Numbered from the stretch's first letter, positions 11,436 through 20,163 are shown. The stretch is 32,000 nucleotides of DNA from Promethearchaeum syntrophicum (GCF_008000775.2 NZ_CP042905.2:2190001-2222000); one strand, 5' to 3'. Translations and numbers: made by a program. The notes: generated by a model from the sequence alone, not told the origin.

Positions 11436-12344
11436 CTATTTCTCTGATTCCTTATTATATGTAAGTAAAAGTCTTGTTAATTCTTTCAAAATTCCTAGCT
11501 GTTGCAATTGATCCCACCTTGAGAAAAGGATAGGAAGAAATTCCCTGCATTGAATGTCATACCAAGTTTTTTCATTAACGTATTCTTTAATAGTCTCGTT
11601 ATAATGTCGAATTATACTATAAAAGAAACTTTTCATATAAGTTGGTTCTAAACCTAATGTTTCTTTATTTACTAAGGAATCACCACTCGATGTATCAAAA
11701 ATGATAATCCCTTTAGTTAAATCAACCATCGGAATATATAATTTAAGTATTTTAAATGCTTCAGGATTCACACGATATTCATCCCACTCCCAGAAGAGAG
11801 GTGTGTATTCGTTTATTTCTCTCAATATGTGAAGATAAGCTTTCTTTTTGAAATATGTCCGGATAATCTTAATATATTTAATAAGAATTTGCTGAAAAAG
11901 CCCTAACATATCTAAAAGGGTTCCTATAGTTCGTGATTCACTGACTAATTCCCATTCTTTTCTAAGAGATCGTAAGGTAATTTTAAATTTTTCAAAAAAT
12001 TGAAGATTTGCGGCGCCATCTTCCCAATATTTTAGATCAATATGGTATTTAATCACAAATAATTTTAATACAATTTCTAACTGCGAACGCATTACCTTGC
12101 TATTCTGCTCTTTAGCATCTGCAGCTATAAGAAGAAGATTATGTTTTGAAGAAATCACGTAAGTCCAACGCATATCATGCATTTCAATGCTCTGGATGCC
12201 TTGTTCTTGAATTTCAACTTCCGAGAAATTATTTAACGCGGCCAACAAACCTGATACAATAATCGCTCGAAAGGGAGCATTATCAAATGAATGATAAAAT
12301 AACATGGTGGAAGAATCTTTCTTTATTATCCAAATATGCTTCAT
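11436..12344 (-). CDS. Paralog 1 of a window-specific family: longin/roadblock-like N-domain plus helical C-domain
   Basis: The track starts at TTG 12347. ATG 12344 gives 'MKHIWIIKK...', matching the MKHFW starts of the other two paralogs. The N-terminal roughly 110 aa has a beta-beta-alpha-beta-beta-alpha pattern ('IVSGLLAALNNFSEVE', 'WTYVISSKHNLLLIAADA', 'VMRSQLEIVLKLFV'). Confidence 0.7.
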   Translation of the reverse strand: MKHIWIIKKDSSTMLFYHSFDNAPFRAIIVSGLLAALNNFSEVEIQEQGIQSIEMHDMRWTYVISSKHNLLLIAADAKEQNSKVMRSQLEIVLKLFVIKYHIDLKYWEDGAANLQFFEKFKITLRSLRKEWELVSESRTIGTLLDMLGLFQQILIKYIKIIRTYFKKKAYLHILREINEYTPLFWEWDEYRVNPEAFKILKLYIPMVDLTKGIIIFDTSSGDSLVNKETLGLEPTYMKSFFYSIIRHYNETIKEYVNEKTWYDIQCREFLPILFSRWDQLQQLGILKELTRLLLTYNKESEK

Positions 12345-12641
12345 CAATTTTCCCCTGCTATAGCTTATTATTCCTTGTTATTTATCAAACAAAAAAAACA
12401 TTACTTTTCAAAAATAAGATGTTTTATAAGACAAAATTATTAATACTTATCGGAGGAATTTGATAAAAATTGTGATGACTATTTATAACCTAATTTCATT
12501 GTTCTAAAGCGTGAAAAACTTGATTATTATTTTTTTTATAAAAGATTGTAGAAGTTTATTAATTATCTATTTGAAATTTTATCATTTTTTCTTAATTCTG
12601 TTGGGGGATTATTTTTAAATAGAAATGAATAATTATTGATT

Positions 12642-13475
12642 ATGTCATCTACAACGACAGAAAATGTTTTTGAAAAAATAACTTATACAGATGGTACAGA
12701 ATCACCCGCAGATTTTGGAAAAATTGTTCGGTTCAACTTAATCATGGGGATTTTGCATTTTGTACAAGCTACTTTAATGCTTATAATGGGATTTGCTTTA
12801 GAAAATTTAAAAAATTTTCAAGCTTCAATTTATATTTTAGAAGTAGATTATCCATTTTTCGCATTATCTGACGAACCCTTTTTAATATTAAAAAGTGTTG
12901 GACCTATAATTGCCTCCTTTTTATATTTCTCTGCAATTGCTCATTTCTTATTAGCGGGCCCTTTGAAAAAATCTTATAAAAAGAATTTAGAGAAAAAAAT
13001 GAACCCCCTTCGTTGGTTTGAATATGCATTTTCAAGTTCAATTATGATTTTCTTTATTGCAGTATTATTTGGGGTGAAAGAATTCTGGATATTATTTTTA
13101 ATCTTCATTAGTAATGCTCTAATGAACTTGTTTGGTCACATGATGGAATTACATAACCAATATACAAAGAAAACAAACTGGACAGGGTATATTTATGGTT
13201 GGATTGCAGGTTTGGTTCCTTGGGTAGTGATTACTGCTGTATTCGTGTCAGCTATGCAAGTTGAAGGCGTTCCTTGGTTTGTTCCCTATATATATGGATT
13301 TGAAGTGTTATTATTCATGTCATTTGCTTTTAATATGCTTTTACAATATCTAAAAGTTGGACCTTGGAAAGATTATGTTCACGGAGAAAGAGTATATATA
13401 ATATTAAGTCTGATTGCTAAAACTCTTTTGGCATGGTTTGTTTTTGCAGGTGTGTTACAACCCGGAGAAATGTAA
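12642..13475 (+). CDS. Heliorhodopsin (7TM retinal protein, inverted topology family)
   Basis: Block-wise match to heliorhodopsin 48C12 as I recall it. 'NPLRWFEYAFSSSIM' aligns with 'NIFRWVEYSLSSSVM' (counterion Glu, codon 13020-13022). 'GERVYIILSLIAKTLLAWFVFAGVL' aligns with 'GERAYIVLSLVAKSALAWQIFSGTL' (Schiff-base Lys, codon 13419-13421). Both conserved His are present ('LHFVQ', 'IAHFLL'). The track start is TTG 12636 and the first ATG is 12642. Confidence 0.9.
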   Translation: MSSTTTENVFEKITYTDGTESPADFGKIVRFNLIMGILHFVQATLMLIMGFALENLKNFQASIYILEVDYPFFALSDEPFLILKSVGPIIASFLYFSAIAHFLLAGPLKKSYKKNLEKKMNPLRWFEYAFSSSIMIFFIAVLFGVKEFWILFLIFISNALMNLFGHMMELHNQYTKKTNWTGYIYGWIAGLVPWVVITAVFVSAMQVEGVPWFVPYIYGFEVLLFMSFAFNMLLQYLKVGPWKDYVHGERVYIILSLIAKTLLAWFVFAGVLQPGEM

Positions 13476-13580
13476 TATCAAGCAAGAGAAATACGGAAAG
13501 AAGGTTTTTTTTCTTTTTTAATTTAATAATATAATCAAAACTATTTTAAATCCAATAATCAATTATTAGATGAACATCTT

Positions 13581-14057
13581 ATGAAGGATAAATTTGGAAT
13601 TGTAGGATCAAAATTGGATGATTTTGAGTTACCTACATCGCGTAATACTATGTTTTCTTCTCTAAGTATGAGAACGAAAGCAAATCTTGTGATAGTTCTT
13701 TTACGAGATATTCATTGACCTTATTGTCGTGCGCATTTAGGAAGATTAGCTATGGCTTATGAGAGATTTCAAGCTTTGAAGACAGAAATTATTCCCATTT
13801 TAGTAGATAACTTGAAAAACGTTCAAAAAATGGAATCGAAATATGCTAAGGGAAAATTCCCGATTCTCTATGATGAAAAAAATTTTGTAGCCAAAAAGTT
13901 GCACCAAGAAGTAAAATTGTTAAAATTGGGGCGTCTTCCAGGAATGTTAATTGTGGATAAGCAAGGATTAGTCCAATATGCATATTATGGAGATAATATG
14001 GCTGATATTCCTAAGAATCGTGATGTCTTAGAAATATTAGCGACAATGCAAAGTTAA
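13581..14057 (+). CDS. Peroxiredoxin-like (AhpC/TSA-type thioredoxin-fold) redoxin with in-frame TGA at the CxxC position; candidate selenoprotein (UxxC), alternatively a nonsense pseudogene
   Basis: The track shows only 13752..14057. The same frame is open from ATG 13581 apart from TGA 13716-13718. Read-through gives '...KANLVIVLLRDIH[TGA]PYCRAHLGRLAMAYERFQAL...GRLPGMLIVDKQGLVQYAYYG', a full-length fold of about 158 codons. The TGA aligns with the first redox Cys. Confidence 0.55.
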
Positions 14058-14132
14058 TGATTCAAACATAGAATATAATGTAAACCTATGGATTATATTC
14101 ACAAGGTGTGCCCTCACCGTTTGATTTTTTTT
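14057..14132 (+). other. Structured 3' UTR element (candidate SECIS and/or terminator) followed by a T8 run
   Basis: Complementary segments are CAAAC 14063-14067 with GTTTG 14119-14123, GAATATAAT 14071-14079 with ATTATATTC 14092-14100, and GGTG 14105-14108 with CACC 14115-14118 (loop TGCCCT). TTTTTTTT follows at 14125-14132. Confidence 0.3.
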
Positions 14133-14222
14133 CTTACTTTTCAGAAAGGCAGGGTTTTCAATTCATAGATTAAGTTTTAAATAAATAGGAAAAAAAATTG
14201 AATTAGATCTGTGTTATTTTAT

Positions 14223-14714
14223 CTATTCGTTAATTATCTCGAAGATCATCTTGTCTATTATAGCTTTCTTCGTTTCTCGTTTATCAAAATACCATCCCAC
14301 GATATTGTCCGGCGTGATAACTACCATTACTCCTGTCGTTAGGTAATTGAGAATCTTCAAATCAACTTCGTGTAAATTTTCTTTACCATTTGGATGAGTG
14401 TGAAACTGATAGATAATGTCAATGTTTCGTTCTTCCTTTAGCTTACGCATATAATATAATTTATGCTTTTTCATGCGCATCCAACTTTTTGGGCGTACAT
14501 GTGAGTCGGCTGGGTCTTTGGTGACATCATAACCATTTATAATGGCGAAGTTGTTCTTTCTGTCTGCAAACATCCACCCTGCGACAATTCGATTCTTGTC
14601 TTTATGCCCATCTTTAGCTAGTTGCGTTAGTTCAACGAAAATTGCCTCTGGAATCAAATAACGAAAATCTATACTGGCCATGTTTTTTATCTCCAATGAT
14701 AAATAAAAACACAT
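14223..14714 (-). CDS. JAB/MPN (JAMM-like) domain protein
   Basis: 163 aa. 'FHTHPNGKENLHEVD' fits H-x-H-x7-[S]-x2-D with His in the Ser position. An upstream acidic residue lies in 'IPEAIFVEL'. The likely true start is ATG 14681 (MASIDFRY...), preceded by GGAG. Confidence 0.7.
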   Translation of the reverse strand: MCFYLSLEIKNMASIDFRYLIPEAIFVELTQLAKDGHKDKNRIVAGWMFADRKNNFAIINGYDVTKDPADSHVRPKSWMRMKKHKLYYMRKLKEERNIDIIYQFHTHPNGKENLHEVDLKILNYLTTGVMVVITPDNIVGWYFDKRETKKAIIDKMIFEIINE

Positions 14715-17204: not shown

Positions 17205-17885
17205 ATGGAAACCAACGATTTCAATAAAAATTTAAACCAAATTGAAGAAATACTCTCAGATTTTATTCAAATTTTTCCAATTCTCATGGGTTTATATAGT
17301 AAAATCAAAATGAACGAAGGATATAAAGAAAAGAAAAATCTTGAACTCTTCGAGAATTTAATTGAATTAAGTATCAAATCTAAAATCATATTGGAAAACT
17401 TTGCCATCAAAAAAGATTTACGATTTGAGCGGTTATTCGATCTAAAAACCATATGGCAAGGTAAAAAACGCGAAGATATGCTATTAATTTTAGAAAAATC
17501 TATGAATTTCTATCCTATAGCAATGCATTATGGTAAAATTCTTGAAAATGAATCAAAATTATCTGAAGATCAATCTTATATTCTTTTAAGAAATATAGTT
17601 TCAATTGGTGAAGATGCACAAATTCCCCAAAAAAGAGATTATGAAACCTATAATTTATTTGGGCAGGTTCAAAGACCAGATCGAAAAACAATAATCCTTA
17701 ATATCAATCCGGAAAATGGTGAGAAGATTTTATCTCTAGAAAAAGCTGATATTCAAGAAGAAGATGGGAATATTTATATTACAATTCCAAAATCTATTGT
17801 TTATGAAAAGGATGAGATTCGGCCGTTTTATGAAAATGATTATAATTATTCAATATTCGTGCTTAAATCAAAGAATAATGATTAG
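17205..17885 (+). CDS. Hypothetical protein ('gene X'), helical N-part plus beta-rich C-terminal module
   Basis: 226-aa ATG ORF. The C-terminal 'DGNIYITIPKSIVYEKDEI' loosely recalls the AbrB/SpoVT 'GRVTIPKEIR' hairpin, which is weak evidence. The last 195 nt are duplicated at 19799..19993. Confidence 0.6.
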   Translation: METNDFNKNLNQIEEILSDFIQIFPILMGLYSKIKMNEGYKEKKNLELFENLIELSIKSKIILENFAIKKDLRFERLFDLKTIWQGKKREDMLLILEKSMNFYPIAMHYGKILENESKLSEDQSYILLRNIVSIGEDAQIPQKRDYETYNLFGQVQRPDRKTIILNINPENGEKILSLEKADIQEEDGNIYITIPKSIVYEKDEIRPFYENDYNYSIFVLKSKNND

Positions 17886-18104
17886 AAAAATTAGAAAAAC
17901 CTTTATTAAAATTCATTTTTCTTAAATTGTCAATTCTTTAACGTAAAATTAAATAAATTACACAATTTTCTTTTTTTTTTTCATAAAATAATTTAATTTT
18001 ATCGAGAAAATCATTTATATAATTCTTCAACCATTTTCAGTAAATGTTGATTGATTGGAATTTGGGATTTATTTATTTGAAACCATTGCAAAAGATGGAT
18101 CAAC

Positions 18105-18512
18105 ATGGGTCAAAACCAAGGTGTAATTGATGTTAAGGTTGGTGTTGTTCCCGAAACTCCTATTTTTACTACTTTAACTCAGACAATCAACTCATCTGAA
18201 TTTACAATTGAATGGACTGCATCTAACTACACAGATGTTTATAATATTTATTTAGATGATACAATTGCAGGAAATACGACAATAACTGAATTTTTATTAG
18301 AATTTGATAATAATGGCGATTACATTGTTGGACTTTCTGTCCAAAATGAATACGGAATATCAAATCGGGCACTACCCATAACGATAATCGACGAAAATCC
18401 CAATTTTAAAGAATCTAACGATAATCATTATAGGTATTTCTTCGGAGGTGGATGGATAATAGTTGCAGGGTTTATTGGAGTTGCCTTTGTTAAAATGAAA
18501 TTGAAGAAGTAA
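18105..18512 (+). CDS. FN3/Ig-like domain protein with C-terminal TM anchor and basic tail
   Basis: 135 aa. The FN3-like pattern is 'PETPIFTTLTQTINSSEFTIEWTASNYTDVYNIYLDD...GDYIVGLSVQNEYGISN'. The C-terminus is 'GGGWIIVAGFIGVAFVKMKLKK'. No N-terminal signal peptide is visible. Confidence 0.5.
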   Translation: MGQNQGVIDVKVGVVPETPIFTTLTQTINSSEFTIEWTASNYTDVYNIYLDDTIAGNTTITEFLLEFDNNGDYIVGLSVQNEYGISNRALPITIIDENPNFKESNDNHYRYFFGGGWIIVAGFIGVAFVKMKLKK

Positions 18513-18532: not shown

Positions 18533-19354
18533 TTATGGAGTCTTGGTAGAGCGTGACAGCTTTGTTGGACCCCATATGATGATAATTATTACTACAATAA
18601 TAATAGTAGTAAAAAATCCAATCCAACGGCCTATTCTGGTATACCAATAATGAATTGTGGCTGCAGATAAATTCATCATCCAATGGAATAAAATCGATAT
18701 TGACAAACTTCCTTTAGTATTGTTGTAAAGCCATGAATATAGTACAGATAATATAAGATTCATTAAGAAAAACTCGTAAAATGGGTAATTTGATTGAGTG
18801 GTTCCAGAAATAAAGGAAAGGGGTAAGTGCCATAGACTCCAAAAAAAACCTAATATTAAACTTGAGATTAGCGCATTATATTTTTTCTGAATTTTATCAA
18901 GAGCATATCCACGCCATCCAAACTCCTCTGCAATTGGTCCCCCAATGAAAAGAATCATAAAGAAATCCATTAAAATTTGCAATATCGGAGAAATCATTGA
19001 GTATTCTGCTGGGAATGTTTCGATTTGAATCATAATAATTAAAGTGATACTAGATGTAATAAATCCAAGAAAAATAGTGGGGATTAACCATTTCTTATCA
19101 AAATTCCACTGCCACGCTCTTTTCAACAAATTTTTTACACCCTCTATTTTCTTATATCGAAATATTATTATTATTGCAATTATTGAAGGACCAAAAGAAG
19201 CAAAAATACCACAGAAGAAAGGAATCGCCTCATGGATTGAAATTACTCCTTGGGAATTTAGAACACCGGGTAACCAGAATAGCCATGACCATATAAAGGT
19301 ATAAAGAAAGAATATGAAAAGATGATTTTCATTATTTATTTTAACTTCGCTCAT
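18533..19354 (-). CDS. CPBP-family intramembrane glutamic endopeptidase (CAAX protease / Abi)
   Basis: 273 aa and polytopic. The three family motifs are present: 'EEFGWR' (EExxxR), 'FFWSLWH' (FxxxH) and 'FHWMMN' (HxxxN). Confidence 0.85.
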   Translation of the reverse strand: MSEVKINNENHLFIFFLYTFIWSWLFWLPGVLNSQGVISIHEAIPFFCGIFASFGPSIIAIIIIFRYKKIEGVKNLLKRAWQWNFDKKWLIPTIFLGFITSSITLIIMIQIETFPAEYSMISPILQILMDFFMILFIGGPIAEEFGWRGYALDKIQKKYNALISSLILGFFWSLWHLPLSFISGTTQSNYPFYEFFLMNLILSVLYSWLYNNTKGSLSISILFHWMMNLSAATIHYWYTRIGRWIGFFTTIIIVVIIIIIWGPTKLSRSTKTP

Positions 19355-19791: not shown

Positions 19792-19795
19792 TAAA

Positions 19796-19993
19796 ACGAT
19801 AATTCTTAATATAAATCCCGAAAATGGTGAGAAGATTTTATCTGTAGAAAAAGCAGATATTCAGGAAGAAAATGGGAAGATTTTTATTACAATTCCAAAG
19901 TCCGTTGTTTATGAAAAGGATGAGATAAGACCATTTTATGAGGATGAATATAATTTTTCTGTATTCGTTCTAAAATCAAAGAATGATGATTGA
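19796..19993 (+). pseudogene. Start-less copy of the 3' end (last 64 codons) of gene X
   Basis: 19799..19993 aligns without gaps to 17691..17885, about 86% identical by my count. The frame is intact ('IILNINPENGEKILSVEKADIQEENGKIFITIPKSVVYEKDEIRPFYEDEYNFSVFVLKSKNDD*'). A TAA closes the frame at 19784-19786, and there is no in-frame ATG/GTG/TTG downstream of it before the homologous region. Confidence 0.65.
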
Positions 19994-20163
19994 GACTCAT
20001 AAACAAACCCTTTTTTTTTATTCAATATTCATCTTGTTTCATTCTATCATAAAATATACTATTCCAAACCAGAAATTTTTCTGTAGAACTAATGATGGAA
20101 TGGTATAATTGAATATTAATTATTTCTTTTTCTTTCTGATTTCACTCTATTTGTTATTATTCT

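What the first reader, a model, noticed from the sequence alone, without database searches (positions are those of the whole stretch)
13581..14057. In-frame TGA exactly at the first Cys of a CxxC redox motif: candidate UxxC selenoprotein hidden by ORF calling
The ORF track reports only a 101-aa fragment from ATG 13752. The same frame is open back to ATG 13581 apart from one TGA at 13716-13718. Reading through gives MKDKFGIVGSKLDDFELPTSRNTMFSSLSMRTKANLVIVLLRDIH-[TGA]-PYCRAHLGRLAMAYERFQALKTEIIPILVDN...GRLPGMLIVDKQGLVQYAYYGDNMADIPKNRDVLEIL. That is a complete AhpC/TSA-type, peroxiredoxin-like thioredoxin fold of about 158 codons. The TGA sits after the hydrophobic beta-strand, where this family has the pattern '..vvLvFyRG.WCPyC..'. 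It therefore replaces the first redox Cys and yields U-P-Y-C. A single stop at a redox-Cys column, with both flanks intact and no frameshift, is the classical signature of Sec recoding rather than decay. Sec decoding is established in methanogens and in Lokiarchaeia-type Asgard archaea, which fits the apparent origin of this contig. A recent TGY->TGA nonsense mutation remains possible.
Basis: partly seen in the sequence, partly recalled or inferred. Interest (0 to 1): 0.75.

Follow-up and report, generated by a model that had tools for sequence, protein, structure and literature searches.

The report
Known selenoprotein gene, truncated in annotation
The in-frame TGA really encodes selenocysteine in a peroxiredoxin-like redox protein of the Asgard archaeon Promethearchaeum syntrophicum, but this gene and its family are already published, so the only possibly new point is an unusual three-armed RNA fold behind the gene that probably directs the recoding.

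Summary
ATG 13581 to TAA 14055-57 is one 158-codon frame with a single TGA at 13716-18, and it encodes a full-length AhpC/TSA (Prx-like) protein with U-P-Y-C.

The Sec interpretation is strongly supported:
- The same TGA column occurs in all 13 Sec-carrying Asgard-type orthologs read at DNA level, and in 78 of 80 species-representative genomes (Asgard and bacteria).
- Rare homologs carry Cys at that column.
- The 45 codons upstream of the TGA are under purifying selection (dN/dS about 0.1).
- TGA is an ordinary stop elsewhere in the window.

It is not new. The window is P. syntrophicum MK-D1. The exact read-through protein is listed as the Prx-like selenoprotein 'GCA_008000775_U_2' in the supplement of ISME J 2024 (PMC11227280). 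The PrxL family in Lokiarchaeota dates from Mariotti et al. 2016. Only the public annotation is wrong: it gives a 101-aa fragment.

My added finding is a 63-nt three-way-junction RNA at 14062-14124, starting 4 nt after the stop codon and followed by a U-run. It is conserved with strong covariation behind all PrxL clades examined. It is absent behind the one non-Sec Asgard homolog. Its main hairpin (9 bp, 12-nt A-rich loop ending in G) resembles the published lokiSECIS, but the defining AUGA/GA core is missing. It is the probable SECIS.

The parts
13581..14057 (+). Complete prxL (Prx-like thiol:disulfide oxidoreductase) coding sequence: 158 codons including one Sec codon, then stop TAA 14055-57
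   Evidence: The translation is identical over 158/158 residues to 'Lokiarchaeia_GCA_008000775_U_2' in the supplement of PMC11227280.
13716..13718 (+). UGA read as selenocysteine (codon 46), the first residue of the redox box U-P-Y-C (13716-13727)
   Evidence: The TGA is conserved at this column in 78/80 homologous loci. One locus has TGC and one has GAT. The column aligns to the first Cys of CxxC.
13581..13715 (+). N-terminal 45 codons, missed by annotation. They encode the beta-strand (NLVIVLLRD) that leads into the redox box.
   Evidence: The segment is conserved in all orthologs. dN/dS against the window is 0.10 for L004 and 0.07 for L091, similar to the downstream part.
13752..14057 (+). 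The 101-aa fragment that public annotation reports (UniRef A0A5B9DBY9, 'AhpC/TSA family protein')
   Evidence: P0003 is 100% identical.
14062..14124 (+). Candidate SECIS: a three-way junction.
- P1: 14062-67 paired with 14119-24.
- Hairpin A: 14071-79 paired with 14092-100 (9 bp), with the 12-nt loop GUAAACCUAUGG at 14080-91.
- Hairpin B: 14105-08 paired with 14115-18, with loop UGCCCU.
   Evidence: The MFE is -16.3 kcal/mol with z -3.0, and this fold makes up 49% of the ensemble. The same architecture is recovered independently in orthologs and paralogs. Covariation: alignment A11 has 96.7% of cells paired, 20/20 pairs with changes on both sides, and 0/500 shuffles as high; alignment A8 has 97.8% paired.
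14125..14132 (+). U8 run directly after the junction: probable archaeal transcription termination signal (inference)
   Evidence: Sequence. T-rich runs lie directly or within about 10 nt after most of the 20 aligned elements.
13505..13560 (+). Intergenic region: a T-run (13505-19) ends the upstream heliorhodopsin unit, and an AT-rich TATA-like stretch (about 13543-51, some 30 nt before the ATG) suggests that prxL has its own promoter (inference only)
   Evidence: Sequence. No promoter test was run.

Best explanation
13581-14057 is a single gene for a 158-residue Prx-like (PrxL) thiol:disulfide oxidoreductase of Promethearchaeum syntrophicum MK-D1. Codon 46 (UGA) is decoded as selenocysteine, giving a U-P-Y-C redox box at the start of the first helix of a thioredoxin fold. 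The Sec is the attacking residue. It cycles with the single Cys three residues later through a selenenylsulfide.

Recoding is most likely directed by the 63-nt three-way-junction RNA in the 3'UTR (14062-14124), about 345 nt downstream of the UGA. This RNA would recruit the archaeal Sec elongation factor with Sec-tRNASec. Transcription probably ends at the U-run that follows.

Shown here:
- the reading frame and the domain;
- the Sec/Cys column and deep conservation of the TGA;
- purifying selection on both halves of the gene;
- the conserved, covarying RNA structure behind the gene.

Taken from the literature: the Sec machinery and the other selenoproteins of this genome.

Inferred:
- that the junction is the functional SECIS;
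- which protein binds it;
- the biochemical substrate of the enzyme.
For: Frame and domain.

Origin: P0003 is 100% identical and is named Promethearchaeum syntrophicum.

TGA conservation:
- The DNA of L001-L010 has TGA at the same column. The 'W' in database proteins P0001, P0002, P0004 and P0008 is that TGA read under another genetic code.
- 78/80 species-representative loci have TGA, one has TGC and one has GAT. The pattern that found them does not include the Sec column.
- All five metagenome loci also have TGA.

Sec/Cys pairing: CPVC/CPFC in P0012-14 and WCPYC in PDB 3hdc.

Selection: dN/dS upstream of the TGA is 0.07-0.10 against the two informative relatives. A third relative gives 0.45 on only 8 changes. 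Downstream the values are 0.12-0.15.

TGA is not reassigned: 4 of 28 ORFs in the window end in TGA.

Literature:
- The PrxL family, with UxxC or UxxU, was described in Lokiarchaeota (PMC4989117).
- Prx-like selenoproteins occur in 43% of Sec-using Asgard archaea (PMC11227280).
- This exact sequence is listed for GCA_008000775, together with Sec-containing SelD, HdrA, FrhD and FrhA.

RNA element:
- Independent MFE folds give the same junction.
- A covariance model built from the other subclade gives alignment A8: 97.8% paired, 10/20 pairs with double changes, 0/500 shuffles as high, and slid controls at 33-57%.
- A model built only from the window and three close relatives returns, at E<=0.6 in 36 kb, ten hits. 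All ten lie directly behind PrxL stop codons, including the paralog-clade loci L098 and L100.
- On that alignment 96.7% of cells are paired, 20/20 pairs show double changes, 0/500 shuffles are as high, and slid controls give 35-48%.
- The one non-Sec Asgard homolog (L023, Asp at the column) has no such element: under 11 bits against 43-92 bits for the complete elements of its closest Sec-carrying relatives.
Against: - There is no direct evidence of selenium incorporation or of read-through peptides.
- tRNA-Sec, EFSec, PSTK and SepSecS are not in the window and were not retrieved here. Their presence rests on the published survey.
- The 3'UTR element lacks the AUGA...GA core that defines the published lokiSECIS and the eukaryotic SECIS. 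No Rfam SECIS family matches. Its role as the SECIS is therefore inferred from position, conservation and association with Sec forms only.
- The Sec-form versus non-Sec-form contrast rests on a single non-Sec locus.
- Covariance-model alignments lean towards the modelled structure.
- A flexible three-helix fit reaches 16-18 of 19 pairs in random AT-rich sequence. Individual weak members such as L002, L006 and L017 are therefore not significant on their own.
Confidence: 0.9

Rival explanations
1. The TGA is a recent nonsense mutation or an assembly error, and the gene is a pseudogene or a truncated 101-aa protein.
For: Public annotation calls only the 101-aa fragment. A single TGY-to-TGA change would produce this picture in one genome.
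Against: The TGA is present at the same column in independent assemblies and metagenomes down to 32% identity, in 78/80 genomes. The upstream 45 codons are conserved with dN/dS of about 0.1. No additional stops or frameshifts occur in any ortholog.
Confidence: 0.01
2. The UGA is read through or reassigned to a standard amino acid (for example Trp or Cys by near-cognate decoding) rather than to Sec.
For: Some gene callers translated the orthologs with TGA = Trp (P0001, P0002, P0004, P0008).
Against: In those same contigs TGA also serves as the true stop of the gene (L001, L002). In the window TGA ends 4 of 28 ORFs. The column is the catalytic Cys position, and its only alternatives are Cys or, once, Asp. 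The family is a recognised selenoprotein family, and the genome is reported to carry other selenoproteins.
Confidence: 0.03
3. Sec is inserted, but the functional signal is not the three-way junction as a whole. Either hairpin A alone acts as a relaxed type I eukaryote-like SECIS, with P1 and hairpin B serving as terminator or stability elements, or a signal lies elsewhere, for example inside the coding sequence as in bacteria.
For: Hairpin A alone has the published lokiSECIS geometry: a 9-bp stem and an 11-12-nt loop that is A-rich and ends in G. L010 seems to lack P1 and instead has an extended hairpin A. The bacterial homologs of this family must use an in-CDS SECIS. The element is followed by a U-run, so part of it could serve termination.
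Against: P1 and hairpin B covary as strongly as hairpin A across clades: 6/6 and 5/5 pairs with double changes. They are present in all three MK-D1 paralogs. Archaeal termination is not known to need a hairpin (my own knowledge). No conserved hairpin follows the UGA in the Asgard genes: RNAalifold finds no consensus structure across 19 sequences. No canonical AUGA-stem-GA element lies near the gene; the nearest pattern match in the window is 3.7 kb away inside other genes.
Confidence: 0.25

Closest known systems
PrxL (Prx-like) selenoproteins of Lokiarchaeota/Asgard (Mariotti et al. 2016, PMC4989117; ISME J 2024, PMC11227280)
   Same: Same family: an AhpC/TSA fold, a redox box with Sec replacing the first Cys, and no other Cys in the protein. 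This very sequence is entry GCA_008000775_U_2 in the 2024 dataset.
   Different: The two PrxL genes described in 2016 (GC14_75...RGAWUYYU......RGSWUIHC...) belong to another PrxL clade. The window's clade (LLRDIHUPYCRAH) is closer to the bacterial Prx-like selenoproteins. Its 3' element lacks the AUGA/GA core reported for the 2016 genes.
Bacterial Prx-like thiol:disulfide oxidoreductase selenoproteins (Fomenko & Gladyshev 2003 and Zhang & Gladyshev 2008, as cited in PMC4989117)
   Same: They are homologous at 32-41% identity, with U-P-[YF]-C at the same column in about 65 species of Chloroflexota, Syntrophales, Clostridia, Spirochaetota and others.
   Different: Bacteria must decode the UGA with a SECIS inside the coding sequence. 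The archaeal genes carry a conserved structure in the 3'UTR and no conserved hairpin after the UGA.
lokiSECIS / eukaryote-like SECIS (AUGA, 9-bp stem, 11-nt apical loop, GA)
   Same: Both lie just behind the stop codon. Both have a 9-bp stem and an apical loop of about 12 nt with adenines near its start and G at its end.
   Different: No AUGA directly 5' and no GA/AA directly 3' of the stem: the window has CAUA and AC there. The stem sits in a three-way junction with a second hairpin and a closing helix whose pairs are Watson-Crick and covary, so no kink-turn core is apparent.
True peroxiredoxins (AhpC/BCP/PrxQ)
   Same: They share the Pfam AhpC-TSA/Redoxin fold.
   Different: Peroxiredoxins have T/S-x-x-C, with the catalytic Cys at the position of this protein's second Cys. 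Here the Thr column is Sec, giving a thioredoxin-type UxxC.
NCBIfam NF040769, SelL-related redox protein
   Same: It is the best NCBIfam match (E 5e-14) and also a UxxC/CxxC-type redox family.
   Different: The score of 52 bits is far below the family cut-off of 120, and only part of the profile is matched. The protein is not a member.

Membership tests
PrxL / Prx-like selenoprotein family | AhpC/TSA-Redoxin (thioredoxin-like) fold over the whole protein | tested here: met
   Pfam AhpC-TSA E 5e-18, residues 8-133, profile positions 1-123 of 124; Redoxin E 1.7e-13
PrxL / Prx-like selenoprotein family | CxxC-type redox box (not T/SxxC) whose first position is Sec or Cys | tested here: met
   The window has U-P-Y-C. 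The column is Cys in P0012-14 and in 3hdc (WCPYC), and Thr in the true peroxiredoxin 6q5v.
PrxL / Prx-like selenoprotein family | In-frame UGA conserved among orthologs with intact flanks | tested here: met
   TGA in 78/80 genomes, and in every Asgard-type ortholog read at DNA level except the single non-Sec homolog L023 (Asp). dN/dS upstream is about 0.1.
PrxL / Prx-like selenoprotein family | No Cys outside the redox box (noted for Loki PrxL) | tested here: met
   The 158-residue translation has a single Cys, C49. The remark comes from PMC4989117.
PrxL / Prx-like selenoprotein family | Host genome has Sec machinery (tRNA-Sec, EFSec, PSTK, SepSecS, SelD) | not testable with these tools
   None of these genes is in the window. 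The published survey lists a Sec-containing SelD and four other selenoprotein families for GCA_008000775. It defines Sec users by at least 3 machinery genes plus a selenoprotein.
PrxL / Prx-like selenoprotein family | Selenium actually incorporated | not testable with these tools
   This needs 75Se labelling or mass spectrometry.
lokiSECIS / eukaryote-like SECIS | Located in the 3'UTR close to the stop codon | tested here: met
   The element starts 4 nt after the TAA stop codon. In the orthologs the aligned elements start within about 30 nt of the stop.
lokiSECIS / eukaryote-like SECIS | 9-bp stem with an apical loop of about 11 nt, adenines at the loop start and G at the loop end | tested here: met
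   Stem 14071-79/14092-100 is 9 bp. The loop GUAAACCUAUGG is 12 nt.
lokiSECIS / eukaryote-like SECIS | AUGA immediately 5' of the stem and GA (or AA) immediately 3': the kink-turn core | tested here: not met
   The flanks are CAUA and AC. A pattern scan of the whole window finds no AUGA-stem-loop-GA/AA element near the gene. The AUGA at 14057-60 lies just 5' of helix P1, and in the orthologs the equivalent bases pair by Watson-Crick rules within P1.
Euryarchaeal SECIS (GAA_A bulge) and Rfam SECIS families | Match to a described SECIS model | tested here: not met
   Rfam gives no hit at gathering score, and no SECIS family appears among hits up to E = 10 in 13500-14400. By eye there is no GAA...A bulged hairpin.
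Bacterial SECIS | Conserved hairpin immediately 3' of the UGA inside the coding sequence | tested here: inconclusive
   RNAalifold finds no consensus structure in 63 nt after the UGA across 19 Asgard sequences. However, the bacterial positive control also gave only a weak consensus (-1.4 kcal/mol), so the test has low power.
True peroxiredoxin (AhpC/BCP) | T/S-x-x-C peroxidatic motif | tested here: not met
   Sec occupies the Thr/Ser column.

The most novel reading that the evidence does not exclude
The PrxL selenoprotein genes of Promethearchaeum-type Lokiarchaeia are recoded by a SECIS of a form not yet described. It is a roughly 63-nt three-way junction made of a closing helix, a 9-bp hairpin with a G(U/A)AAAC...GG loop, and a short second hairpin. 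It has no AUGA/GA kink-turn core, so it is neither the euryarchaeal GAA_A type nor the eukaryote-like lokiSECIS. This would mean that the only cultured lineage at the archaea-eukaryote transition uses more than one SECIS architecture, and that kink-turn recognition is not obligatory there.
Probability: 0.3. Interest if true: 0.55.

Novelty: already known. Interest (0 to 1): 0.3.

Why it matters
For the gene itself, the practical value is a correction. GenBank/UniRef carry a 101-aa fragment (and a separate 45-aa upstream piece in some relatives) for what is a 158-aa selenoprotein. Some metagenome gene calls show Trp where Sec belongs.

MK-D1 is the first cultured Asgard archaeon (PMC9723677). 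Its PrxL genes and their 3'UTR elements are therefore the natural substrates for the first experimental test of Asgard Sec insertion.

If the three-way junction is the SECIS, the picture of a simple progression from archaeal to eukaryote-like kink-turn SECIS needs a further branch. Pattern-based SECIS searches that require GA..[G/A]A would miss these genes.

Tried and rejected
- Rfam at gathering score and at E<=10 found no SECIS or any other credible family. ARAGORN found no tRNA or tRNA-Sec in the window.
- A first fold of 14055-14225 gave an insignificant z of -1.3, because A/U runs further downstream competed with the element. The element emerged only from comparison with orthologs.
- MAFFT alignments of the 3'UTR elements misaligned the helices (A3, A4, A9). 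I replaced them with covariance-model alignments.
- Model R1, built from the other subclade, does not detect the window's element by sequence. The reverse model R2 does connect the clades.
- My hand-made structural alignment (97% paired, 19/19 positions with double changes) is not strong evidence by itself. The same flexible fit reaches 16-18 of 19 pairs in random sequence, although 19/19 occurred in 0 of 600 random sequences against 14 of 22 real ones.
- I considered a kink-turn or k-junction reading of the junction and rejected it. The first pairs of hairpin A and the pairs of P1 are Watson-Crick and covary, and the junction strands carry no conserved G-A.
- The scan for other TGA-interrupted genes in the window found only three short, unconvincing candidates.
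- The metagenome scan added only five loci.
I did not pursue it, since the Pfam and PDB alignments already place the Sec.
- The supplementary tables of PMC11227280 with per-gene SECIS calls, and the supplement of PMC4989117, are not held. I therefore could not check whether this element was already recorded.

Full report
**Observation.** The sequence is as described. The mechanical ORF list gives only 13752..14057 (101 aa) on the + strand. Translating 13581-14060 in the same frame gives MKDKFGIVGSKLDDFELPTSRNTMFSSLSMRTKANLVIVLLRDIH*PYCRAHLGRL...ATMQS**. There is one internal stop, TGA at 13716-13718 (att cat TGA cct tat tgt cgt), and the terminal stop is TAA at 14055-57. With Cys placed at the stop, Pfam AhpC-TSA covers residues 8-133 and practically the whole profile (1-123 of 124; E 5e-18). 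Redoxin also matches (E 1.7e-13). The two pieces therefore form one domain, and the TGA sits inside it.

**Origin.** The 101-aa fragment is 100% identical to UniRef A0A5B9DBY9, 'AhpC/TSA family protein', of Promethearchaeum syntrophicum. This is the cultured Lokiarchaeia strain MK-D1. G+C content is 30%, and 4 of 28 ORFs in the window end in TGA, so TGA is a normal stop in this genome. Neighbouring genes are unrelated to selenium metabolism. A heliorhodopsin gene lies directly upstream, and glycosidases, MetRS and transporters lie elsewhere. The window holds no tRNA.

**Is the TGA a sense codon?**
- The first protein search returned two kinds of relatives. One kind was about 100-aa fragments cut at the same place. 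The other was full-length proteins with Trp at the critical column (HWPFC, RWPYC, HWPYC).
- Fetching their DNA showed that each 'W' is a TGA read under another genetic code. In two of those contigs a second TGA is the true stop of the gene.
- Extending the fragment-type relatives upstream gives the same picture in every case: MKDKF..., 45 conserved codons, TGA, then P-[YF]-C-R.
- A scan of one genome per species found 80 confirmed loci. The hits that carry TGA can only have been found through KLLKLGRLPG, a stretch far from the Sec column, because the other search pattern requires Cys there. Of these loci, 78 have TGA at the column, one has TGC and one has GAT.
- The TGA loci comprise 13 Asgard-type loci (one of them a contig binned into a bacterial MAG) and about 65 bacterial species from Chloroflexota, Syntrophales, Clostridia, Spirochaetota and others.
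- Five further metagenome loci all carry TGA.
- Cys-containing relatives (CPVC, CPFC) and the solved thioredoxin-family protein 3hdc (WCPYC) place the first redox Cys at this column. In a true peroxiredoxin (6q5v) the column is Thr.
- Against close relatives, the 45 codons upstream of the TGA have dN/dS of 0.10 (L004) and 0.07 (L091), like the downstream part at 0.12-0.15.
- A nonsense mutation, a pseudogene, an assembly error or a split gene cannot account for these results.

**What is known.** This is the 'Prx-like' (PrxL) selenoprotein family.
- Mariotti et al. 2016 described PrxL in Lokiarchaeota as a thioredoxin-type CxxC protein whose first Cys is Sec (PrxL.2) or whose two Cys are both Sec (PrxL.1). 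It has no other Cys. Sec forms were already known in bacteria and some eukaryotes (PMC4989117).
- The 2024 Asgard selenoproteome found Prx-like selenoproteins in 43% of Sec-using Asgard archaea (PMC11227280).
- The supplementary FASTA files of that paper contain 'Lokiarchaeia_GCA_008000775_U_2', which is identical over all 158 residues to the read-through translation of this window, with X at position 46.
- The same assembly contributes two more Sec-containing PrxL paralogs (U, and U_3 with UxxU), plus Sec-containing SelD, HdrA, FrhD and FrhA.
- That study accepted an organism as a Sec user only with at least three Sec-machinery genes and one selenoprotein gene.
Only the database annotation is deficient.
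- The two PrxL genes of the 2016 paper belong to the other PrxL clade (RGAWUYYU, RGSWUIHC). The window's clade (LLRDIHUPYCRAH) appears only in the 2024 dataset, and it is the clade nearest to the bacterial Prx-like selenoproteins.

**The recoding signal.** Archaeal and Asgard SECIS elements lie in the 3'UTR. The published lokiSECIS is AUGA, a 9-bp stem, an 11-nt apical loop (A-rich at its start, G at its end), then GA. The 2024 survey searched with the looser pattern GA..[G/A]A flanking a 7-15-bp stem, and reported such structures for 85% of genes.
- Neither Rfam nor a direct pattern scan of the window finds such an element near this gene.
- Comparing the 3'UTRs of the orthologs shows instead a common three-helix structure that starts within about 30 nt of the stop and is usually followed by a T-rich run.
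- In the window it is as follows:
  - P1: UCAAAC 14062-67 paired with GUUUGA 14119-24.
  - A 3-nt linker.
  - Hairpin A: GAAUAUAAU 14071-79 paired with AUUAUAUUC 14092-100, with loop GUAAACCUAUGG.
  - An A-rich linker.
  - Hairpin B: GGUG 14105-08 paired with CACC 14115-18, with loop UGCCCU.
  - Then U8.
  - The MFE is -16.3 kcal/mol, this fold makes up 49% of the ensemble, and z is -3.0.
- Independent MFE folding gives the same junction in most of the roughly 27 sequences folded, whether untrimmed or trimmed.

**Statistical support for the structure.**
1. Subclade with P1 = AUUUGG/CCAAAU: a covariance model finds 11 complete elements at 43-92 bits, plus one cut by a contig end. On its alignment 97.8% of cells pair, and 10 of 20 pairs show changes on both sides (7 of 9 in hairpin A). 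None of 500 shuffles reaches this. Slid controls pair at 33-57%.
2. Window-type model: a model built only from the window and three near-identical relatives returns ten matches at E<=0.6 when run unfiltered on 36 kb. Every one lies directly behind a PrxL stop codon. They include members of the other subclade and of the two paralogous PrxL clades (L098 = MK-D1 U_3; L100). On that alignment 96.7% of cells pair, against 54.6% in shuffles and 35-48% in slid controls. All 20 pairs show changes on both sides, and 72 cells do so against 20.5 +/- 3.6 in shuffles.
3. Caveats: these alignments are fitted to the model. A freely sliding three-helix fit reaches 16-18 of 19 pairs in random AT-rich sequence, though it never reached 19/19 in 600 trials against 14 of 22 real elements. 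Weak individual members carry no weight alone.

**Association with Sec.**
- All three PrxL paralogs of MK-D1 and their relatives carry the junction, in three different genomic contexts. The apical motif is the same: GUAAACCACUGG, GUAAACAAAAAAUG and GAAAACCUUUGG.
- The single non-Sec Asgard homolog available (Helarchaeota L023, D-L-F-C) has only a small hairpin behind its stop. It scores under 11 bits with both models.
- No conserved hairpin follows the UGA inside the Asgard coding sequences, although this test had low power.

**How the element compares with known SECIS types.** Hairpin A has the lokiSECIS geometry: a 9-bp stem, and a 12-nt loop with AAA near the start and G at the end. However, the stem is flanked by CAUA and AC, not by AUGA and GA. 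An AUGA does occur at 14057-60 (stop TAA plus TGA) and at the 5' edge of P1 in many relatives. There the bases pair by Watson-Crick rules with the 3' strand, and they vary (AUGGAC in L099; CCGA, AUAA and AAGA in others). They therefore do not form sheared G-A pairs. I see no kink-turn. I conclude that the junction is the probable SECIS and that it departs from the described core. I cannot say whether the 2024 tables already list part of it, because they are not held. A full-text search found no paper that links SECIS with a three-way junction in archaea.

**Mechanism proposed.** The mRNA starts from its own AT-rich promoter region after the heliorhodopsin terminator (inference). It runs through the 158-codon frame and ends at the U-run after the junction (inference). 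The junction recruits the Sec-specific elongation factor with Sec-tRNASec, directly or through an unknown adaptor. No SBP2 homolog is known in Asgard archaea. UGA-46 is then read as Sec (inference, supported by conservation). The product is a thioredoxin-fold oxidoreductase whose Sec46 attacks a disulfide, sulfenic acid or peroxide. It is resolved by Cys49 through a selenenylsulfide. This chemistry follows the known behaviour of CxxC/UxxC proteins; the family has never been characterised experimentally.

**Verdict.** Novelty of the finding as submitted: already known. The residual interest lies in the mis-annotation and in the non-canonical, junction-type candidate SECIS.

Noticed in passing
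window 12636-13475 (+): A heliorhodopsin gene (Pfam PF18761, E 4e-79) lies directly upstream of prxL on the same strand, 105 nt away and separated from it by a T-run. The orthologous prxL loci have a cupin gene there instead, so the pairing is not conserved.
   Followed up: partly
window 17685-17907 and 19793-20015: A 223-nt direct repeat (83% identity, 2108 nt apart). The first copy is the 3' end of ORF 17205-17885 and the second lies in apparently non-coding DNA. The repeats bracket ORF 18105-18512 and an Rce1-like CAAX protease gene (18533-19354, -). This could be a partial gene duplication or the footprint of an insertion.
   Followed up: partly
L001, L002, L003, L009 (database proteins P0001, P0002, P0004, P0008): Public metagenome gene calls translate the Sec codon as Trp, so a TGA=Trp code was evidently used. 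In two cases they run past the true TGA stop, producing false C-terminal extensions. This is a systematic artefact that hides selenoproteins as 'W' variants.
   Followed up: yes
L096 (MK-D1 paralog 'U') and L097: In this PrxL paralog the three-way junction overlaps the end of the reading frame. L097 has its stop codon inside hairpin A. In MK-D1 the frame stays open for about 50 more codons. The published protein (…PLVFYDYLVCSQ…NDFR) reads through the RNA element, so its true C-terminus is uncertain.
   Followed up: partly
L014 (DATKTP010000126.1) = L094: A contig binned as the bacterium 'Candidatus Deferrimicrobium' carries an Asgard-type prxL (55% identical) with the archaeal 3'UTR junction (43 bits with model R1). 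The contig is probably misbinned, or else the gene was recently transferred.
   Followed up: no
L023 (Helarchaeota Hel_GB_A), gene 885-1355: The only Asgard homolog without Sec or Cys at the column has M-D-L-F-C-Q. It has lost the first redox residue and the Pro but keeps the second Cys. It lacks the 3'UTR junction and retains only a 5-bp hairpin with a 12-nt loop.
   Followed up: partly
L042, L056, L060, L063, L078, L087 (bacterial homologs): Six bacterial members have U-P-[YF]-A or U-P-F-T. Sec is kept but the resolving Cys is lost, which suggests a one-residue (selenenic acid) mechanism or an external thiol partner in those lineages.
   Followed up: no
window 11436-12347 (-): A 303-aa ORF has a weak match (E 6e-4, below the cut-off) to the first longin domain of FUZ/MON1/HPS1. 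It may be one of the eukaryote-like trafficking proteins typical of Asgard genomes.
   Followed up: no
window 14055-14060; L098 1295-1303: The prxL genes often end in tandem in-frame stops (TAA TGA here; TAA TAA TGA in paralog U_3). The last stop forms the 5' edge of the RNA junction. This may be a safeguard against Sec insertion at a terminal UGA, or it may be incidental.
   Followed up: no
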